A DNA stretch of 64,000 nucleotides from a virus. Its lineage: Duplodnaviria > Heunggongvirae > Uroviricota > Caudoviricetes. Below, piece after piece: positions 42,546 to 55,306 of the stretch. The notes beneath the pieces were generated by a model. That model was given only the letters and a program-made list of their open reading frames with translations, searched no databases and was not told where the DNA came from. Position 1 is the stretch's first letter; each line of letters starts with the position of its first letter. The position numbers were made by a program, and so were the translations under genes. Location of the stretch: IMG/VR virus record IMGVR_UViG_3300000976_000008, positions 239,223 through 303,222 of that record; one strand, written 5' to 3'.

Positions 42546-42847
42546 ATATCTTCCTTGTCAACTAATTGATCATTGTGAAGATAATAACGCTTGCGACAAT
42601 ATTTGCAGATATCGGTATTCTTACCTTTAATCTTCTGCTTGTTCCAGTTGCCGTTGCCATCTCTTCTGACATGCCCCATATTGGTGCAAATATCGTCAAT
42701 AGTTTCCCACTTTACGGGCTTGGGTGGAAGTCCCGACCAAACATGATTTTTGACTGGAATTTCTGAGATCGCTTTCTCGATAACAGTGACGATCCCATCT
42801 ATACATTCGTCATCATCAATATCGAATATTAGCGTTACCTGTCGCAT
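42542..42847 (-). CDS. Hypothetical protein
   Basis: 101 aa ORF. Confidence 0.7.
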   Translation of the reverse strand: MRQVTLIFDIDDDECIDGIVTVIEKAISEIPVKNHVWSGLPPKPVKWETIDDICTNMGHVRRDGNGNWNKQKIKGKNTDICKYCRKRYYLHNDQLVDKEDI

Positions 42848-43248
42848 TGATGTAAACCGTTCTCATGGAAGTATTTGTTTCTCTTGCGAAACAAAATTTT
42901 GCCACCTTTGGATCTTTTAGCCCAAAAGCCCCATTTTCTGCGTTCAGGACCTGTGATCATCAGAGTCCAGCAGCCACCTTCATTTACCTTTACGGTATGT
43001 TTGTGTTCTGCTTTAAAGCTCTTAATTGATCCTCTTTTTAATACGGTGTCACCTTCTGGGCTTTGATCAGTATATCCGCCTTTGAGGACGATTGTTGTAT
43101 AATCCCAGGGATGATCGTGCGGTGCCCTATCGTCATCGCTGGCTAACCAGTGATGTAGGCGTAGTGAGAATCATCCGAATTCTAGACACCATCGACGAAG
43201 GTAAACACCGTCGACGCATTTAAGTTCTTGACCCCAGATTATCTTCAT
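42835..43248 (-). CDS. Phage cupin-like protein with one in-frame UGA (codon 26, 43171-43173): readthrough gene or recent pseudogene
   Basis: MKIIWG...YLRRWCLEFG*FSLRLHHWLASDDDRAPHDHPW...LKGGY...HKHTV...WTLMITGPERRKWGFW; ATGA-coupled start. Confidence 0.8.
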
Positions 43249-43412
43249 CTCTTCCTCTTCTTGTTCCGTTTGTTCTTACGTTTCTTTTGTTTGAGTTCTA
43301 CTGGTTCCAATCCCTCACATAAAGGACATTCTTCGTAAGAACTACCATAATCTCCATAAATCGTTGGCGAGTGTATGACTCCTCTTCCCTCGCATTTCGC
43401 ACATTTTGGCAT
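43245..43412 (-). CDS. Small Zn-finger protein with basic tail (55 aa)
   Basis: MPKCAKCEGRG...CPLCEGL...KKRKNKRNKKRKR. Confidence 0.7.
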   Translation of the reverse strand: MPKCAKCEGRGVIHSPTIYGDYGSSYEECPLCEGLEPVELKQKKRKNKRNKKRKR

Positions 43413-43539
43413 TGTTTGTCTTTATCATGATCAGTCCCTCACAAGGACAAGTGAGAATTACGCTACCATACGTGGCAGGTGGTGGATCTCTCTTTACAAG
43501 CTCACCTCTACCATCGCATATCGTGCATTCAAGAGCCAT
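43342..43539 (-). CDS. Small Zn-finger protein
   Basis: MALECTICDGRG...CPCEGL; TAATG overlap. Confidence 0.65.
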   Translation of the reverse strand: MALECTICDGRGELVKRDPPPATYGSVILTCPCEGLIMIKTNNAKMCEMRGKRSHTLANDLWRLW

Positions 43540-43709
43540 TATCCACATTTCCCGTTGCAAGCGGTAGAGCAGAGAGTGCAAGATTCTACTTGTAATCTTC
43601 TACGATGATCATAGTAACAAGATTTCGAACAGTAGTCAGTTGCATCTTCTCTGTTCTTCTTCCAATCGCACTTAGGATTCTTACAATTATTCGGGCCAGT
43701 TTTGTGCAT
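43539..43709 (-). CDS. Small Cys-rich protein (56 aa)
   Basis: CKNPKC...YCSKSC...CTLCSTACNGKC. Confidence 0.65.
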   Translation of the reverse strand: MHKTGPNNCKNPKCDWKKNREDATDYCSKSCYYDHRRRLQVESCTLCSTACNGKCG

Positions 43710-43717
43710 ATGTTGTC

Positions 43718-43942
43718 CTAATCGCGGCGTACTAGAAAAACACGGTCCTCTTCACGTTTCGCAATTCGCCAATTCCCTGGCGGTATGGGAATTCTGATGT
43801 CTTCCCAGTTTGCAGAATCGTTAGTGTCTCCGATTAGCACATTAGATTTGTTGCTAACTGAGAGATTCCCATATTTTGCAGGAACGTATGGTGAATATGA
43901 AGTAACTTTCTCTGATGGTGTGCTCATAACGTTCCAAAACAT
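43718..43942 (-). CDS. Hypothetical protein
   Basis: Short ORF, start uncertain. Confidence 0.6.
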   Translation of the reverse strand: MFWNVMSTPSEKVTSYSPYVPAKYGNLSVSNKSNVLIGDTNDSANWEDIRIPIPPGNWRIAKREEDRVFLVRRD

Positions 43943-44056
43943 TTCGAATAATTAGGTGCACGTTTTCAGCAAATTGACCGTATTGTTCTTTTTGACAGGC
44001 AACCGACAGTGAAACCGGTGCCGCTTTTAACAGTCTTTTTGACAGAGGAACGACGA

Positions 44057-44410
44057 ATGAGTGTTGCAGAATTGGCTTATGTTGCTGAAACAACCCGCAA
44101 AGACCGAGCACACAATATTGCTATTGCGATATTGAAGCTGAAGGATGGGGAGAATCATGGTGCTAGGACTCGCATGATCAGGAGAGTTATCCGAGAAGAG
44201 TTGGGACTGCCAATTCTTGAGGGTGAAGCGATGAATGGTGACCTCAGAGCACATGGAGATGCTCTCGGAAAGCACGAATTGTTCCTCGATGTTCTGAGAA
44301 AGACGGTTCAAGGAAAAACTGAGCGAGTAGTGATGTTCACTGAAGAGAACGTCAAAAAGTGCGAAGAATACCTTGAGAAGAACGGCGAAGATCAAGAGAA
44401 GATTCTCTAG
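44057..44410 (+). CDS. Hypothetical protein
   Basis: GAGG RBS, ATG 44057. Confidence 0.75.
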   Translation: MSVAELAYVAETTRKDRAHNIAIAILKLKDGENHGARTRMIRRVIREELGLPILEGEAMNGDLRAHGDALGKHELFLDVLRKTVQGKTERVVMFTEENVKKCEEYLEKNGEDQEKIL

Positions 44411-44435
44411 TTCTAAGACGGCACGGATGCCGGTG

Positions 44436-44485
44436 GGGGAGGTTCATAGGCTCATCATATGAACCTCCCCTTTCCTTTCTTTTAT
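44436..44485 (+). terminator. Intrinsic terminator
   Basis: GGGGAGGTTCATA-N9-TATGAACCTCCCC followed by T-rich tract. Confidence 0.7.
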
Positions 44486-44490
44486 TTAAA

Positions 44491-44658
44491 TCCGCGACCT
44501 GGGACTCGAACCGCAGGATCTCCCCCATGTTATCACTCCTAGCTCTGACGTTGCAATCATCAGAATTCGGTGTGGCAAATTGGATCGTAAAGCCTAACGT
44601 ACGCTGCTTCACGTTCCTCTCCGCTGGGCGGTGCTTTAACCAACTAAGCTAGTCGCGG
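44491..44658 (-). ncRNA. tRNA-like RNA with about 97-nt insertion in the anticodon arm
   Basis: Acceptor CCGCGAC/GTCGCGG-A, D arm TAGCTTAGTTGGTTAAAGC, T loop GGTTCGAGTCC. Confidence 0.75.
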
Positions 44659-44898
44659 GTGGCGAGCTGCCTACAGAGCAGACAACTCTAAGTTTCGAAT
44701 TAAGTCTCCCTACACCTACTTGGGACTATGGTCTGTGGGACCGTGTGCCTTAGGGGTTTCGGTCAAAATGGTTGGCTTCACACCTTTTGGGTCGATCCAC
44801 CAACCATCATCTACCTTAAATTTCCCATCATGGGCAGAGGTAATCCACTTTCTCGCGAAAGCGGTCACGATTATGCCATCCGTTGCACTATCCCGTTC

Positions 44899-45324
44899 TT
44901 AATTCGAGTAAAACTCCTCCAATTCCAGGATGATCGCATTGAGATTATCCGGGATATCGACTTCTTGCACATTCTGGATGCAATCTGCTGGCCGACGACA
45001 GATCTGGTATTGTTTAAGAACGTGCAAGTAAAGATTCTTGTAACGAGATTCTTTACAATTGATTCTCCGGAATCCGAGACCATAGAACTCCTTCTTGTCT
45101 AGCTTATGCATGCCAGATTCGATGAAGTTCTTCGGTGCCTTGGGTTCATTACCAGAGCGGTTCTGAGGCTGCTTGCGAACCCACCGCAAGTACGCCTTAC
45201 ATTCGACATAGGCTCGGAGAAGAAGCTTGTGAGCCTTCTTCAACTTGAGATATGTCTCATAATCGCATGGGTGGTATCCAAAACGGCCTTCAGTGATAGT
45301 ATTAGTAGTTGTTGCAGTCTTCAT
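44899..45324 (-). CDS. Hypothetical protein downstream of Pth2-like gene and leader ORF
   Basis: GGAG RBS; FGYHPCDYETYLKLK. Confidence 0.85.
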   Translation of the reverse strand: MKTATTTNTITEGRFGYHPCDYETYLKLKKAHKLLLRAYVECKAYLRWVRKQPQNRSGNEPKAPKNFIESGMHKLDKKEFYGLGFRRINCKESRYKNLYLHVLKQYQICRRPADCIQNVQEVDIPDNLNAIILELEEFYSN

Positions 45325-45395
45325 TAGTATCTCCAGGATTGATTTTTACAGCGATTTTAATTAAAGTTGAATCAATGAATCTCAAACTAGAGAAA

Positions 45396-45425
45396 CTAAG
45401 GCGGGTCTCTACAAGGTCATAGCAT
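45396..45425 (-). other. Putative leader mini-ORF ML*PCRDPP* (UGA at codon 3)
   Basis: AGGA-N8-ATG CTA TGA CCT TGT AGA GAC CCG CCT TAG. Confidence 0.45.
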
Positions 45426-45429
45426 AATA

Positions 45430-45792
45430 CTATCCTTTCACCAATTGGAGCCTACGGAATAGGCGTCGATCGTCGCCTTTAATGGGTGCGGTTGCGAGTG
45501 CTGTCAATTCATTATCGCGGTCTGGTTCGTAGAATTTCTCGAACCGAATACCGGATGATTGCAGTTTCTCAGCCTGGGCATGAAGTGCGTCTTCATGCTT
45601 GACATGGCACAACACCAAATGAGGGTGTGGCGTGTCTGGAGCGATTCCGCCGCGTCTAGAAATCTCGATTGCGGCGTGGATTCCCTGCACAGCTTGTTGT
45701 GCGGGAGTTAGATCTTTTCGGGTGATCACGTATACGTGTCCACCGTACTCTTCATCAACTGGAAGTCACAGGTCTTTAGTTTGTGTCAGCAT
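45430..45792 (-). CDS. Pth2-like peptidyl-tRNA hydrolase with in-frame UGA at codon 9 (45766-45768)
   Basis: MLTQTKDL*LPVDEEYGGHVYVITRKDLTPAQQAVQGIHAA...FYEPDRDNELTALA; AAGGA RBS before ATG 45792. Confidence 0.8.
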
Positions 45793-45807
45793 GTCTTTTT
45801 CCTTCTC

Positions 45808-45843
45808 TACCTTAAATACGTTTGGATTGTTTCGAAGAAACAT
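45808..45843 (-). promoter_or_regulatory. Class II promoter-like motif ATGTTTCTTC-N10-AAACGTATTTAAGGTA
   Basis: Both blocks identical to 60768-60803; variant at 46001-46028. Confidence 0.65.
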
Positions 45844-45994
45844 TGTCAAGAAATTCGCTCAAGGGCATTACTTTGGAGCCTTGATCCACCAATTGTTGAA
45901 ATGTCAACCGTTCCTTTCGGGCCTCGCTACGAATCTTTTCTATTCGAGCTTGTTCCTTTTCTGAACGTTTGAAATCTCGGTGTATTCTTGCCAT
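45812..45994 (-). CDS. Small basic hypothetical protein
   Basis: MARIHRDFKR... after class II motif. Confidence 0.6.
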   Translation of the reverse strand: MARIHRDFKRSEKEQARIEKIRSEARKERLTFQQLVDQGSKVMPLSEFLDNVSSKQSKRI

Positions 45995-46011
45995 CTGTAT
46001 CTTAAATACAT

Positions 46012-46391
46012 TTAGATTTGGCGGAAGATTACTCATAATATTTATATGAGATTGGCATGACTCCAACTAAATTCATAACCAATTTATCATCTCTATCAAC
46101 AGATAATCCTAGGCCATTACCAGGATCACCCATTGTGGCAGAATCGTTATTTTCAGGCCATTTAGTTGGAGGCCCTTGAAGTTCATATTCACAAATTTCA
46201 GGATCAGAAATTTCAGGATCTTCAATAGTTATCGTTAAAAAATGTCTACCTTGAATCTGTTCGTATTCAAGATATTCATGAGTAACTCCAAAACTGGTTT
46301 CATAATCACCAGTAGCACTGAAACTTTCAGAAATCAAATTCAATTTCATATGTCACCTAACCTGTGTTAGATTAGATTTGGCGGAAGATTA
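46012..46391. repeat. 20-bp direct repeat flanking ORF 46029..46349
   Basis: ttagatttggcggaagatta at 46012-46031 and 46372-46391. Confidence 0.85.
46029..46349 (-). CDS. Acidic hypothetical protein, N-term MKLNLISES
   Basis: AGGTG RBS. Confidence 0.75.
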   Translation of the reverse strand: MKLNLISESFSATGDYETSFGVTHEYLEYEQIQGRHFLTITIEDPEISDPEICEYELQGPPTKWPENNDSATMGDPGNGLGLSVDRDDKLVMNLVGVMPISYKYYE

Positions 46392-46417
46392 TCCTTCTAA
46401 TTGTGTCGATTGTTAAT

Positions 46418-46702
46418 TTAGATGTGAGAAATATAAAAACTTTCATGTCCATCCTGTTCGATTTCAAACTGATCAGAAAGGTCTGTCAGAAATTCGATAA
46501 CTTCATCTCCGTCCCATTCACGTTCCCCAAAAACACTATGTCCTGCTGAACCAGCATAAAGATGTGCAGCAGAAGCTTCTCCATTCGTATCTTGTATTAC
46601 TTGCTTTATTGCAGCATTTGCCCATGCTATGAATCGTCTTTTCTCTGCTTGTGGATCTGGCTTGTTTAGGGCATGAGTTAATCTATTTTCGAATACATTC
46701 AT
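46418..46702 (-). CDS. Hypothetical protein
   Basis: 94 aa, own promoter. Confidence 0.75.
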   Translation of the reverse strand: MNVFENRLTHALNKPDPQAEKRRFIAWANAAIKQVIQDTNGEASAAHLYAGSAGHSVFGEREWDGDEVIEFLTDLSDQFEIEQDGHESFYISHI

Positions 46703-46746
46703 GACAATATCTCTCGGCGAAAGAAGAGGAGGAATTCATCTACATT

Positions 46747-46773
46747 CTGTTGTGAAAAGCAGATTCCTGTTAA
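46747..46773 (-). promoter_or_regulatory. Class I promoter motif (variant)
   Basis: TTAAC-N13-TCACAACAG. Confidence 0.6.
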
Positions 46774-46779
46774 ATCAGA

Positions 46780-47292
46780 TCATTTTGGCCAACTATCCAT
46801 AAATTCGTCAGCCTTACACCATCCCTGTATAGGGTAGGATTTGATTCCGTCCTTTGTATCTTCAATTCGGATCATCTTTTGACCCACACCGAATTCGATT
46901 ATTGATCCTCGACGCCTCATCCCATGGATCATTGTGCAAGCACTACCGAAAGCAGTCATAATCGGTGTCTCAAATGGTAATTTGTTTACGACACCTATAG
47001 GGATGGTTCTTTCTAATTCGGAGAAACTTTCGAAATCATGCATTATCTGGCTGATTTCTAGTTTATCCTCTACTCGAATCATAGTCGCTCTGGCTTGCTC
47101 GTAATCTTGACGGAGTGGGTTACACTTCCACCCATTCCACCCCCAAGCCATCATGCTGCCAGTGCAACCATCTGTTTTACATTTTCGTTGGTCTTCGTAT
47201 GGCTCATCAGTATGAAGTGCCTCAAAACCACAACCCCAGCATTTCAAGACGTCTTTCTTAAAATGCTCGACTTCTCTTGAATCAAATGCCAT
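46780..47292 (-). CDS. Hypothetical Zn-ribbon protein
   Basis: CWGC...CKTDGC; TAATG overlap. Confidence 0.75.
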   Translation of the reverse strand: MAFDSREVEHFKKDVLKCWGCGFEALHTDEPYEDQRKCKTDGCTGSMMAWGWNGWKCNPLRQDYEQARATMIRVEDKLEISQIMHDFESFSELERTIPIGVVNKLPFETPIMTAFGSACTMIHGMRRRGSIIEFGVGQKMIRIEDTKDGIKSYPIQGWCKADEFMDSWPK

Positions 47293-47711
47293 TAGTTCTC
47301 GCGTGTGATTGCTGCTGGGTCGACTTGGAGCTTGTCTATGTAGGTTTGGAATTGTGCTGCGGATACTGATCGCAGTTGTTGAAGTTCCCAAGTCTTGGAA
47401 TCTGGATTGGTTGGTTTGAATTGCCCACTCCACATAGTGCAGGAGACTGTTGCCTTCTTACCAATCTCCATGTTGATTTCAACGGCTTTGACAGTTGAGA
47501 TCCATTCGCCTTTTTCGTTGAGGACGAGAAGTTGCCCTGGTTTTGCGTCGCACACGATCATGAAGACTGATTTGCCTGTTGATATGGTGGACTTCTGAGT
47601 TGATGTTGGAGTCTTTGTCGCTGTCTTCTCTTGTGCGGCTACAGTGGTGAATTGTGAAAGAAGAACTGATGCGAGAATGACTGCGGAACAAACGACTGCT
47701 AGCTTCTTCAT
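47292..47711 (-). CDS. Secreted hypothetical protein
   Basis: Signal peptide MKKLAVVCSAVILASVLLSQFTTVAAQ; AGGAG RBS. Confidence 0.8.
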   Translation of the reverse strand: MKKLAVVCSAVILASVLLSQFTTVAAQEKTATKTPTSTQKSTISTGKSVFMIVCDAKPGQLLVLNEKGEWISTVKAVEINMEIGKKATVSCTMWSGQFKPTNPDSKTWELQQLRSVSAAQFQTYIDKLQVDPAAITREN

Positions 47712-48217
47712 GAGAGGCTCCTGGGATAGAATTGGTTCAGAGATCAAATACGTGAAAGGCTCGCAGCAAATTATCACTGCGAGCCTTTCTAGCATTATTG
47801 GGCGGGGATCATGGAGCCTTCATGTTGATTATCTTTGGCTCTTACCCCTATAACATTCTCTTTTATTTTCTTTTTATTTGAAACTTTTCTTTTCTTGGTC
47901 TCTTTGACTTGCTCTTGGTCTCTTTGACTTCTCTCAGCGTCTCTGTCTCTCTAAGATACTTTCCCAAACTTCTTTCTGCGAGATGTCGGCCATCCAGAAG
48001 TTTGAGAGGCGGGGTCATAGGGCACTCTGGCCATTCAGCCGCTTAGTGTGCCCTCACCCTTTTATACCTTCACGGGTGGGTGGTGCTCTCGTTCTCATTT
48101 AGTAAGCCTCGCAATTCATTAATGCCTAAGTTCTAATGAGTCATCAGCCCGGCGATCACAGTATCACCCCGAACCTCGTCGCCGCCGTAGCGGACTTCCA
48201 CACTTCGAATACATGAG

Positions 48218-48292
48218 AGGGGCCAGGGGGATTCGAACCCCCGACGAACGCTGGTTTGAAATCAGCCGCTCTGACCACTGAGCTATGGCCCC
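48218..48292 (-). tRNA. tRNA with UCA anticodon (opal suppressor), copy 1
   Basis: GGGGCCA TA GCTC AGTGGTCA GAGC G GCTGA TT-TCA-AA CCAGC GTTCGTC GGGGG TTCGAAT CCCCC TGGCCCC T. Confidence 0.9.
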
Positions 48293-48303
48293 TTGATACC
48301 AAT

Positions 48304-48330
48304 TTGTTGCGAAAAGAGAAACCCCGTTAA
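48304..48330 (-). promoter_or_regulatory. Class I promoter motif driving tRNA(UCA) copy 1
   Basis: TTAAC-N13-TCGCAACAA, 11 nt before tRNA 5' end. Confidence 0.75.
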
Positions 48331-48351
48331 TTTATATTTTACTACATTAAG

Positions 48352-48428
48352 CAGGGCCAGGGGGATTCGAACCCCCGCAAGACAGGAATTTGAAATTCCC
48401 CGCTCTAGCCAGACTGAGCTATGGCCCC
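48352..48428 (-). tRNA. tRNA with UCA anticodon (opal suppressor, Trp-like G73), copy 2
   Basis: GGGGCCA TA GCTC AGTCTGGCTA GAGC G GGGAA TT-TCA-AA TTCCT GTCTTGC GGGGG TTCGAAT CCCCC TGGCCCT G. Confidence 0.9.
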
Positions 48429-48473: not shown

Positions 48474-48950
48474 TTGGATGAAAATGTGAAAACCTGTTCC
48501 GCTTGCAATGAAGACAAACCAGAAACAGAATTTAATTGGAAGAAAAAAGATGTCAAACGTCATGCTAGGTGTAAAGAATGTACCAAGAAAGATAAGAAAC
48601 GCCATTATGTTAATAACCGCGATTCATATATTACCAAGCAGAGAAAAATAAACATCCAGAAAAAACTGGAAATTAAGAGTTTGGTTTTCGAACATTTAAC
48701 TAAGCATCCGTGTGTAGATTGTGGCGAAGATGATATCAGAGTCTTAGACTTCGATCATCTAAATCCAAATGATAAAAGATTTAATATTTCTGATGCACAC
48801 AGACATTACCAATACAGCATTAAGAAGGTAAACGAAGAAATTGCGAAATGTGACGTGCGGTGTGCAAATTGTCATCGAATACGCCATTGGGAATTAAATG
48901 TATCTGACAATTCAAGAAGATTATACGAATCTCACACTAATAGATCGTGA
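48474..48950 (+). CDS. HNH endonuclease
   Basis: PCVDCG...VLDFDH...EIAKCDVRCANCHRIRH. Confidence 0.9.
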   Translation: MDENVKTCSACNEDKPETEFNWKKKDVKRHARCKECTKKDKKRHYVNNRDSYITKQRKINIQKKLEIKSLVFEHLTKHPCVDCGEDDIRVLDFDHLNPNDKRFNISDAHRHYQYSIKKVNEEIAKCDVRCANCHRIRHWELNVSDNSRRLYESHTNRS

Positions 48951-54589: not shown

Positions 54590-55015
54590 ATGCAAAAAGC
54601 AATATGTAAAAAACATGGAATTTGCGATCATAAATCTCAAGCTAATGGATTTGATCCTAAAGGAAAACGAAGAAAGAATCGTTTACGTTGTGTTCAATGC
54701 TTGCGAGAGAGGCAAAAGAAAGTTTATAGAAAAAAGAAGGAATTTCTTGTAGAGAAACTTGGCGGGAAATGTGCATTATGTGGTTATTTGAAGTGTAATG
54801 GATCATTAGATTTCCATCACATAGATAGAACTACTAAATTTAAAAACATATCACAAATGCTATTAAGAGACAGCTATGAAAAATGTTTGTTAGAAGCAAA
54901 CAAATGCGTCTTATTATGTAGAAATTGTCATGGTGAATTCGAATCTGGACATAACGAAACAGTTAATCAACTAAACGAATTTTTAATCAAGTCCGGGGAG
55001 AATCGAACTCCCTAA
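54590..55015 (+). CDS. HNH endonuclease
   Basis: LGGKCALCGY...LDFHH...EANKCVLLCRNCHGE. Confidence 0.9.
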   Translation: MQKAICKKHGICDHKSQANGFDPKGKRRKNRLRCVQCLRERQKKVYRKKKEFLVEKLGGKCALCGYLKCNGSLDFHHIDRTTKFKNISQMLLRDSYEKCLLEANKCVLLCRNCHGEFESGHNETVNQLNEFLIKSGENRTP

Positions 55016-55061
55016 GCACTAACTTTGGAGGTTAGCCGTCGTACCCACCGACTGCGGACGT
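54988..55061 (-). tRNA. tRNA-Trp(CCA), non-canonical, copy 1
   Basis: CTAAC CT-CCA-AA GTTAG; T arm GGGAG TTCGATT CTCCC; A1-U72, G73. Confidence 0.8.
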
Positions 55062-55070
55062 ATGAAAAAT

Positions 55071-55144
55071 CAAGTCCGGAGAGAATCGAACTCTCTAAGC
55101 ACTAACTTTGGAGATTAGCCGTCGTACCCACCGACTGCGGACGT
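55071..55144 (-). tRNA. tRNA-Trp(CCA), non-canonical, copy 2
   Basis: Tandem duplicate with compensatory T-stem change GAGAG/CTCTC. Confidence 0.8.
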
Positions 55145-55306
55145 ATGGAACATGGAAGTACCGGTCCACGGAGAATGAGGGTTATGACCTAAGAATCAAC
55201 ACACCATGGACCTGCACAATTAGCGGCAAGGCCAATAATAAAAAGTGTGTTGTGAAATAGAAGTGGTCATTGTAAGGTATGTTTGAACGAAAAGGCTATT
55301 TTTCAT

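What the first reader, a model, noticed from the sequence alone, without database searches (positions are those of the whole stretch)
42835..48428. Candidate opal (UGA)-gated translation switch: phage suppressor tRNAs plus UGA-interrupted rescue/effector genes
Seen, within about 5.6 kb on one strand: two tRNAs with UCA anticodons (48218-48292, 48352-48428); a Pth2-like peptidyl-tRNA hydrolase whose RBS-preceded ATG is followed by UGA at codon 9; a leader ML*PCRDPP*; an otherwise intact, translationally coupled cupin gene with UGA at codon 26; an RAPP-containing ORF interrupted only by UGAs; and a tRNA-like RNA. Elsewhere UGA is a normal stop (many ATGA overlaps, e.g. ligA, TraR), so this is not whole-genome recoding. 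Inference: selected genes are made only when the phage's suppressor tRNAs out-compete RF2, or RF2 is limiting, which would give a temporal switch or a termination-stress feedback loop (Pth is a logical output). This is analogous to prfB autoregulation at a UGA, but uses readthrough.
Basis: partly seen in the sequence, partly recalled or inferred. Interest (0 to 1): 0.92.

Follow-up and report, generated by a model that had tools for sequence, protein, structure and literature searches.

The report
Stop-reading tRNAs gate two phage genes
A 408-kb phage that normally uses UGA as a stop carries two UGA-reading tRNAs and exactly two genes (a peptidyl-tRNA-hydrolase-like gene and a small cupin) that are broken only by an early UGA; dozens of other phages keep the same tRNA-and-gene pairing with stop and anticodon matched, so these proteins are probably made only when the tRNA overrides the stop.

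Summary
The core observation holds. Both tRNA(UCA) genes are real. A PTH2-fold gene has an SD-preceded ATG followed by UGA at codon 9, and a cupin gene has UGA at codon 26. TGA otherwise ends about 37% of the long ORFs, and a scan of the whole genome found only these two interrupted coding frames. The ML*PCRDPP* leader and the RAPP frame have no support.

Comparative data back the interpretation. Among 80 IMG/VR relatives of the PTH2-like gene, 58 begin ATG, 1-8 codons, in-frame TAG; 48 of those have a tRNA(CUA) within 10 kb and none has UCA. The TGA-type loci carry tRNA(UCA). The base after the stop is a purine in 53 of 54 leaders. Cultured phages (GAP32, CBB, fHe-Yen9-04, ME3, Arash, XacN1) show the same design. 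Cupin homologues in amber-type phages carry an early TAG.

The most likely reading is tRNA-dependent readthrough that gates a very small regulon. Nothing is experimental, and the inserted residue and the purpose are unknown.

This scan has already found the same module on other DNA (145 notes, mostly the amber form, some opal). This window is an opal instance with two tRNA copies and a second gated gene. I found no published description.

The parts
48351..48428 (-). tRNA with UCA anticodon, copy 2 (opal suppressor candidate; G1.U72 closing pair, G at the discriminator position)
   Evidence: ARAGORN; Rfam tRNA 58.2 bits; sequence read
48217..48292 (-). tRNA with UCA anticodon, copy 1 (opal suppressor candidate; U at the discriminator position)
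   Evidence: ARAGORN; Rfam tRNA 63.4 bits; cloverleaf as minimum-energy fold
48529..48556 (-). Promoter-like site (TTGACA, 16 nt, TAAATT) about 100 nt upstream of the tRNA pair
   Evidence: Consensus scan. Weak: fewer sites were found than in shuffles.
45769..45792 (-). Leader of the PTH2-like gene: ATG plus 7 sense codons (MLTQTKDL), preceded by a GAAGGA SD
   Evidence: Sequence; same design as the leaders in 54 non-redundant relatives
45766..45768 (-). In-frame TGA, codon 9 of the PTH2-like gene, followed by C
45430..45765 (-). PTH2-fold hydrolase-like domain (111 codons plus stop)
   Evidence: A profile of the family hits solved PTH2 enzymes at 1e-6. The AF2 model has pLDDT 92.5. The 13 best fold matches are PTH2-family chains, TM 0.61-0.72. 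8 of 10 relatives hit PF01981.
42835..43248 (-). Small metal-binding cupin gene (137 codons) with TGA at codon 26; its ATG overlaps the stop of the upstream Zn-ribbon ORF
   Evidence: phrog_4786 at 7e-36. Homologues align from residue 1-3 across the stop. In the model, residues 1-25 form two confident strands of the barrel. The fold is TM1459-like cupin.
43171..43173 (-). In-frame TGA of the cupin gene. The aligned position is F, L, W, P, G or A in homologues, and is W in an almost identical local context in L120.

Best explanation
This is the opal (UGA/UCA) form of a widespread phage module: a phage-encoded nonsense-suppressor tRNA plus a very small set of genes that carry the cognate stop codon a few codons after an SD-preceded ATG.

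Proposed mechanism. Ribosomes start at the ATG and reach UGA while the nascent chain is still short. Either RF2 terminates and releases a tiny peptide, or the phage tRNA(UCA) inserts an amino acid and translation runs on into the PTH2-fold hydrolase-like protein (codon 9) or the cupin (codon 26). Full-length protein therefore depends on the level of active phage suppressor tRNA relative to RF2. The other roughly 140 TGA-terminated genes of the phage would gain only short tails, because the median distance to the next in-frame stop is 7 codons.

Shown: the anatomy, the conservation of the design, the stop/anticodon covariation, and the folds.

Inferred: that the tRNAs are made, charged and decode UGA; which residue they insert (Trp would fit the cupin site); and the purpose of the gate. 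My ranking of purposes is (a) dose or time gating of a potentially harmful tRNA-ester hydrolase to cells where the phage tRNA has accumulated; (b) a feedback loop in which the hydrolase limits the suppressor or clears the by-products of readthrough.
For: 1. The tRNAs are canonical class-I tRNAs with a UCA anticodon.
2. In the 408-kb genome only two coding frames are interrupted by a lone TGA with no usable start behind it. Both lie within 5.3 kb downstream of the tRNAs. The scan that covered all three stops found none for TAA or TAG.
3. Homologues of the PTH2-like gene in GAP32, CBB, fHe-Yen9-04, ME3, Arash and LR756511 all start ATG, 1-3 codons, in-frame stop, then the domain; the stop was read as TAG in CBB, GAP32, fHe-Yen9-04, ME3 and Arash. 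XacN1, RAS14 and Xoo-sp13 have the same leader in front of a longer fusion. The five genomes checked each encode a tRNA(CUA) 0.4-4 kb away.
4. Among the 80 IMG/VR loci, 58 are TAG-interrupted. Of those, 48 have tRNA(CUA) within 10 kb, none has UCA and 10 have no suppressor. The two clear TGA-interrupted loci and L099 have tRNA(UCA) and no CUA.
5. In 23 of 24 loci with a single tRNA in 20 kb, that tRNA is the suppressor. 64 of 67 suppressors lie on the gene's strand, and the 48 that lie upstream sit at a median of 642 nt.
6. The TGA type needs at least two independent changes on the protein tree.
7. Leaders have an SD and are mostly ATG plus one codon. The base after the stop is a purine in 53 of 54. 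From my own knowledge, a purine there favours suppression in E. coli.
8. Cupin homologues in amber-type phages carry an early in-frame TAG: L042, L106, L107/L108 and L119. Three of these have tRNA(CUA) nearby.
9. Residues before the TGA in the cupin are conserved and fold into the barrel.
10. The flanks show no general TAG recoding, and the full genomes of Arash and CBB have only 1 and 2 TAG-gated frames.
Against: - Nothing is experimental. Expression, processing and aminoacylation of the tRNAs and actual readthrough are all unknown.
- A strong opal suppressor would also extend about 37% of the phage's own proteins and many host proteins, so efficiency must be limited or context-dependent.
- In this window the context is not the typical one. 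The leaders are 8 and 25 codons, against mostly 1-3 in relatives. The base after the stop is C (PTH2-like) or T (cupin), not a purine.
- The PTH2-like frame has a GTG at 45729 with a GGTGGA 9 nt upstream that could serve as a start.
- The cupin TGA sits where a close homologue has TGG, so a recent nonsense mutation cannot be excluded for that gene.
- Ten TAG-type loci show no suppressor within 10 kb.
- Loci with an apparently normal start also have tRNA(CUA) nearby. The link between tRNA and gene may therefore be more than translational gating.
- The window's own PTH2-like sequence does not reach Pfam's PTH2 threshold alone.
Confidence: 0.65

Rival explanations
1. The cupin TGA is a recent nonsense mutation (TGG to TGA). 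On this reading the gene is a pseudogene, or is only tolerated because the suppressor rescues a little of it. The stop was not selected as a gate. Only the PTH2-like gene is truly gated.
For: The stop is at codon 26, not codons 2-9 as in the conserved leaders. The next base is T, and UGA-U is a strong terminator in E. coli (my own knowledge). L120 has W in an almost identical local motif. Most cupin homologues have normal starts. The nearest relative phage, L099, has no cupin at all.
Against: The frame is otherwise intact, with a positive coding score on both sides of the stop. It is one of only two such frames in 408 kb and lies near the tRNAs. At least four independent amber-type cupin homologues carry an early in-frame TAG behind an ATG; the SD was read only in L042.
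Confidence: 0.2
2. The PTH2-like protein starts at GTG 45729. The upstream ATG...TGA is a separate 8-codon leader ORF, regulatory or incidental, and no readthrough is needed.
For: The GTG has a GGTGGA 9 nt upstream. Annotators chose an equivalent GTG in ME3. Many database proteins of the family start at profile positions 6-11.
Against: The GTG start removes part of the first strand, E10-16 in the model. No start codon is conserved at that place: CBB, Yen9-04 and Arash have none. The leader ATG is in frame with the domain in all lineages, and the stop type follows the tRNA anticodon. Neither fact is expected for an independent leader ORF.
Confidence: 0.12
3. Readthrough happens, but through host near-cognate decoding or limiting RF2 (UGA-C is leaky). 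The phage tRNAs serve another purpose, and the gate senses the host's termination capacity.
For: The PTH2-like stop is UGA-C, the leakiest context in E. coli (my own knowledge).
Against: This does not explain why amber-type relatives use TAG exactly where a tRNA(CUA) is encoded and opal-type relatives use TGA with tRNA(UCA). It also does not explain why the tRNA usually sits directly upstream on the same strand.
Confidence: 0.08
4. The phage reads TGA as a sense codon throughout (genetic code 4, or late-gene recoding as in crAss-like and Lak phages).
For: Phages of that kind also carry suppressor tRNAs (bioRxiv 10.1101/2021.08.26.457843, abstract seen).
Against: TGA ends 129 of 345 long ORFs. 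Only two frames are interrupted. The table-11 ORF map of the window is dense.
Confidence: 0.01

Closest known systems
Stop-codon recoding in phages with phage-encoded suppressor tRNAs (TAG read as Gln, TGA read as Trp; crAss-like, Lak and other gut phages; bioRxiv 10.1101/2021.08.26.457843)
   Same: A phage infecting a standard-code host brings its own suppressor tRNA. Genes holding the cognate in-frame stop can be completed only when that tRNA acts. A regulatory or timing role has been proposed.
   Different: In those phages tens to hundreds of in-frame stops are spread through late genes, and the stop is largely abandoned as a terminator. Here TGA stays a normal stop, only two genes carry one stop each, the stop is placed just after the start, and the main target is one conserved enzyme family.
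Orphan suppressor tRNAs of cultured jumbo phages: XacN1 (two CUA; PMC5852040), Atu_ph07 (UCA; PMC6102473), RsoM2USA (CUA; PMC8504454)
   Same: Standard-code jumbo phages that carry one or two suppressor tRNAs among many tRNAs.
   Different: Those papers report no target. The XacN1 authors read through only terminal amber stops and found nothing. In XacN1 I find the leader ATG-AAG-TAG in frame with ORF364, whose C-terminal domain is the PTH2-like domain.
Archaeal/eukaryotic peptidyl-tRNA hydrolase Pth2 (PF01981; PDB 2zv3, 3erj, 1xty, 1wn2, human Bit1 1q7s)
   Same: Same fold (TM 0.62-0.72). The R-x-D-L, VQ..HA and acidic-loop motifs align.
   Different: The phage family lacks the two residues holding the conserved GK of canonical Pth2 in the profile alignment. 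It has E-P-D where Pth2 has D-A-G. Its substrate is unknown. It is sometimes fused to an N-terminal domain of unknown function (phrog_14850).
prfB (RF2) autoregulation at an early in-frame UGA
   Same: An early UGA whose fate depends on competition with RF2 sets the yield of a translation-related protein.
   Different: prfB uses a +1 frameshift and its product is the factor that reads the stop. Here the frame is unchanged and the competitor is a dedicated tRNA encoded nearby.
Lambda bar minigenes (two-codon ORFs toxic when Pth is limiting; my own knowledge)
   Same: An SD, an ATG, one or two codons and a stop, in a phage, with a functional connection to peptidyl-tRNA hydrolase.
   Different: The bar minigenes are not followed in frame by a gene, and no suppressor tRNA is involved. 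The resemblance is a lead and I did not test it.

Membership tests
Suppressor-tRNA-gated PTH2-like module (found repeatedly by this scan; no publication found) | SD-preceded ATG, a few sense codons, then an in-frame stop, with the PTH2-like domain continuing in the same frame | tested here: met
   ATG at 45792 and TGA at codon 9, with 111 codons open after it. Same design in 54 non-redundant relatives.
Suppressor-tRNA-gated PTH2-like module (found repeatedly by this scan; no publication found) | A tRNA whose anticodon is cognate to that stop, encoded nearby | tested here: met
   Two tRNA(UCA) lie 2.4 kb upstream on the same strand. Stop and anticodon matched in every interrupted locus that had a suppressor.
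Suppressor-tRNA-gated PTH2-like module (found repeatedly by this scan; no publication found) | The stop is otherwise an ordinary terminator in the genome | tested here: met
   129 of 345 long ORFs end in TGA.
Peptidyl-tRNA hydrolase 2 (PF01981) | Sequence match to the family model | tested here: inconclusive
   The window's copy alone gave no PTH2 hit at E up to 1. 8 of 10 relatives hit (best 9e-8), and XacN1 scores 26.3 bits against a cut-off of 23. The family profile hits PDB Pth2 chains at 1e-6.
Peptidyl-tRNA hydrolase 2 (PF01981) | Pth2 alpha/beta fold | tested here: met
   The model has pLDDT 92.5. The 13 best matches are PTH2-family chains.
Peptidyl-tRNA hydrolase 2 (PF01981) | Hydrolysis of the peptidyl-tRNA ester bond; catalytic residues in place | not testable with these tools
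   R16, D18, Q27, H30, E80 and T88 are invariant in 60 sequences. Their equivalence to the Pth2 catalytic residues was not established.
Selenocysteine tRNA (ARAGORN's label for the UCA tRNAs) | Long variable arm, extended acceptor/T helix, about 90-100 nt, with SECIS and SelB | tested here: not met
   The tRNAs are 75-78 nt. They align end to end with the general tRNA model, with a 7-bp acceptor and a short variable loop. ARAGORN's label reflects the anticodon only.
Genome-wide TGA reassignment (code 4 or late-gene recoding) | TGA rare as a terminator and frequent inside conserved genes | tested here: not met
prfB-type programmed frameshift | Downstream coding sequence in the +1 frame, with an internal SD before the UGA | tested here: not met
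   The domain continues in the same frame as the ATG.
Cupin superfamily (phrog_4786, annotated 'cysteine dioxygenase') | Beta-barrel fold with conserved His metal ligands | tested here: met
   phrog_4786 at 7e-36. H44, H46 and H84 are invariant. The fold matches TM1459-type cupins at E 5e-7. Cysteine dioxygenase activity was not tested and is not implied.

The most novel reading that the evidence does not exclude
The suppressor tRNA and the PTH2-like hydrolase form a self-contained feedback circuit. The early cognate stop acts as a sensor of active suppressor tRNA. The hydrolase it unlocks acts back on that tRNA's acylated or peptidyl form, or on the peptidyl-tRNA produced by readthrough and drop-off at minigene-like leaders. 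Stop-codon override in the infected cell is thereby held at a set level. The tight linkage of tRNA and gene, even where the gene has a normal start, would follow from this.
Probability: 0.15. Interest if true: 0.9.

Novelty: new variant of a known kind. Interest (0 to 1): 0.75.

Why it matters
It would give a concrete job to the 'orphan' suppressor tRNAs that standard-code jumbo phages carry. Their targets were explicitly reported as not found for XacN1. It would also show that stop-codon override can be used surgically, on one to three genes, rather than as a change of genetic code.

The target family is large: 2,515 cluster representatives at E up to 1e-10. It is mostly mis-annotated or missing in phage records, because the early stop breaks gene calling. 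Examples are phrog_34073, a 77-residue stub, and the absent or truncated CDS in GAP32, CBB, BF and Yen9-04.

Several carriers grow on laboratory hosts, so the idea can be tested directly. A natural, compact 'tRNA plus leader' gate may also be useful as a tool.

Tried and rejected
- A megablast of the 6-kb region against 50,697 phage records gave no match.
- Pfam on the single window proteins gave nothing useful.
- I tried to assign the amino-acid identity of the suppressor tRNAs by similarity to 238 typed phage tRNAs. It was uninformative: the nearest types were scattered over Met, Arg, Leu and others. Several anticodon arms do resemble the tRNA-Trp arm (my own reading).
- Genome-wide code 4 is rejected.
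- Selenocysteine is rejected.
- The RAPP frame is rejected as coding.
- The L109 'tca' tRNA next to a cupin has an atypical anticodon loop (A at position 33), so I did not count it as evidence.
- The careful tree search did not finish. Only the quick IQ-TREE result is used.
- The coding-density control for TAG recoding is crude (ORFs of at least 100 aa only). Three or four loci may be partly recoded.

Full report
**What is in the window**

The window is bases 239223-303222 of a single 408,349-bp virus record with 43% G+C and 23 tRNAs. Genes in the region run on the minus strand.

ARAGORN and Rfam both find two tRNAs with anticodon UCA, at 48217/8-48292 and 48351/2-48428. They are ordinary 75-78-nt class-I tRNAs. 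ARAGORN's 'SeC' label reflects the anticodon only. The two copies share acceptor, D and T arms but differ in the anticodon stem.

**The four proposed interrupted frames**

- PTH2-like gene. The sequence reads GAAGGA, 7 nt, ATG (45792), seven codons, TGA (45768-45766), then 111 open codons to 45430.
- Cupin gene. The ATG at 43248 overlaps the TGA of the upstream Zn-ribbon ORF. TGA is codon 26 (43173-43171), and the frame is then open to 42835.
- RAPP frame (48098-47874). It scores as non-coding in every frame.
- ML*PCRDPP* string. It has nothing to recommend it beyond being there.

TGA is a normal terminator in this genome. It ends 129 of 345 ORFs of at least 150 aa and 143 of 398 coding-scored ORFs, with an unremarkable context and a median of 7 codons to the next in-frame stop. 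Two genome-wide scans single out only the PTH2-like and cupin frames. One looked for open coding sequence directly behind a stop with no start codon. The other looked for an SD, an ATG, up to 30 codons, a stop and a long coding frame. The second found nothing comparable behind TAA or TAG.

**What the two genes are**

Neither protein hits Pfam on its own.

For the first gene, 8 of 10 relatives hit PF01981 (PTH2), and the XacN1 homologue passes the curated cut-off. A 60-sequence profile finds solved Pth2 enzymes at 1e-6. The AlphaFold model (pLDDT 92.5) matches PTH2-family chains in its 13 best fold hits. The family is big, with 2,515 cluster representatives at E up to 1e-10. PHROGs knows it only as a 77-residue stub of unknown function.

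The second gene belongs to phrog_4786 ('cysteine dioxygenase'). It keeps H44, H46 and H84 and folds as a small TM1459-like metal cupin. Its 25 residues before the TGA are conserved among homologues and form two confident strands of the barrel.

**The comparative result**

tblastn against GenBank phages showed that the PTH2-like gene is unannotated or truncated in many jumbo phages. Reading the DNA explains why. The gene begins as follows:

| Phage | Start of the gene |
|---|---|
| CBB, GAP32 | ATG-GCA-CAA-TAG |
| fHe-Yen9-04 | ATG-TCT-CAC-TAG |
| ME3 | ATG-ACT-TAG |
| Salmonella phage Arash | ATG-CTG-TAG |
| 595-kb metagenomic phage | M-T-H-stop |

In every case the stop is in frame with the domain. 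XacN1, RAS14 and Xoo-sp13 have the leaders MK-TAG or MKK-TAG in front of a longer protein whose C-terminus is this domain. All five cultured genomes I checked encode a tRNA(CUA) 0.4-4 kb from the gene. XacN1 is reported to have two.

I then surveyed 80 IMG/VR loci with 10-kb flanks.

- 58 loci have ATG, 1-8 codons, in-frame TAG and no ATG before the domain.
- Of those 58, 48 have tRNA(CUA) in the flank, none has UCA and 10 have no suppressor.
- The two clear TGA-type loci (L049, L104) and the ambiguous L099 have tRNA(UCA) and no CUA.
- In 23 of 24 loci with one tRNA in 20 kb, that tRNA is the suppressor.
- 64 of 67 suppressors lie on the gene's strand, and the 48 that lie upstream sit at a median of 642 nt.
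- In 54 non-redundant leaders, ATG plus one codon is the commonest form (31 of 54). SD-like purine tracts precede nearly all of them. The base after the stop is a purine in 53.
- On a quick maximum-likelihood tree the TGA type needs at least two changes. L104 sits in a well-supported clade apart from the window, L049 and L099.

Two controls argue against general recoding. In these flanks, reading TAG through adds less ORF cover than reading TGA or TAA through. In the full genomes of Arash and CBB, only one and two TAG-gated frames appear.

**The cupin is a second target, not only here**

- L042 is an amber-type phage with the PTH2-like gene (ML-TAG) and a tRNA(CUA). Its cupin homologue, 53% identical to the window's, starts GAGGA-ATG-TCG-TAG.
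- L106 (MKAWFT-TAG, two tRNA(CUA), and a TAG-gated PTH2-like gene), L107/L108 (MKFT-TAG) and L119 (MTH-TAG, tRNA(CUA) 400 nt upstream) show the same design.
- Most other cupin homologues have normal starts.
- The window's stop is unusually deep, at codon 26. It sits where one close homologue has Trp in an almost identical motif.

For the cupin, a tolerated nonsense mutation therefore remains a live rival.

Other gated frames seen in relatives:
- the separate N-terminal-domain gene in L056 (MK-TAG; phrog_14850);
- a conserved ML-TAG leader on phrog_22448 in CBB, GAP32 and Yen9-04.

**Mechanism**

The simplest account is that translation starts at the ATG and the early stop is decoded by the phage's cognate suppressor tRNA in competition with the release factor. 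This account fits three facts: the ATG is always in frame, the stop type tracks the anticodon, and the following base is biased to purine. Placing the stop after a very short nascent chain may favour the tRNA over the release factor. That last point is inference from what is known of minigene termination.

What the gate is for remains open. The tRNA stays next to the PTH2-like gene even in loci with an apparently normal start (7 of 7). That hints at a functional tie beyond gating, such as control of the suppressor or clearance of its by-products. The existence of unrelated gated genes argues rather for a general dose or time gate.

**Caveats for this window**

- The leaders are longer than usual, and the post-stop bases are C and T.
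- A GTG at 45729 could start a slightly truncated PTH2-like protein.
- I could not check reads.
- Nothing is experimental.

**Prior knowledge**

Full-text searches found no paper that links suppressor tRNAs to this gene family. The XacN1, Atu_ph07 and RsoM2USA papers report the tRNAs without targets.

This scan has found the module many times on other DNA: 145 notes in at least 101 genomes, mostly amber and several opal. One sibling finding was later priced at 85/100 for the observation and 20/100 for the bold switch reading. My tests were run independently before I read those notes, and they agree with them.

Noticed in passing
window 44491-44658 (-): ARAGORN in intron mode calls a tRNA-Val(AAC) with a 93-nt insert in the anticodon loop. 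The plain run and Rfam miss it. A GC-rich hairpin follows at about 44480-44440. No link to the UGA genes was found.
   Followed up: partly
window 46372-46390 and 46012-46030 (-): An exact 19-nt repeat (AATCTTCCGCCAAATCTAA) occurs twice, 360 nt apart. One copy lies just before the small ORF 46349-46029 and the other at the start of ORF 46036-45812. None is expected by chance.
   Followed up: partly
window 54987-55062 and 55070-55145 (-): ARAGORN calls two tandem tRNA-Trp(CCA), but Rfam does not report them at the gathering score. Their folds are no better than shuffles (z of -0.5 and 0.1). They may be degenerate or unusual tRNAs.
   Followed up: partly
window 43545-43248 (-): Two tandem small CxxCxGxG zinc-ribbon ORFs (weak DnaJ-central-domain and Anti-TRAP hits) lie directly upstream of the cupin. 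The second ends in the ATGA overlap.
   Followed up: no
L159:9797-10207 (CBB 308297-308707); the same in GAP32 and fHe-Yen9-04: A second TAG-gated frame in the GAP32/CBB group. ATG-CTA-TAG is followed by a conserved 26-residue extension in front of the annotated start of a phrog_22448 protein. This may be a short and long form pair.
   Followed up: partly
L056:8489-9067: The N-terminal domain of the XacN1-type fusion (phrog_14850, no Pfam hit, contains a W-H-D-I-G-K motif in relatives) occurs as a separate gene with its own MK-TAG leader, 1.5 kb upstream of the PTH2-like gene.
   Followed up: partly
L122, about 11359: A tRNA with anticodon UUA (ochre type) lies 1 kb from a cupin homologue that has a normal start.
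   Followed up: no
L099:9982 onward: In the nearest relative (354-kb contig, opal type) the PTH2-like frame runs on for 268 codons. It also matches the window's next gene (45324-44899), so the two are fused there.
   Followed up: no
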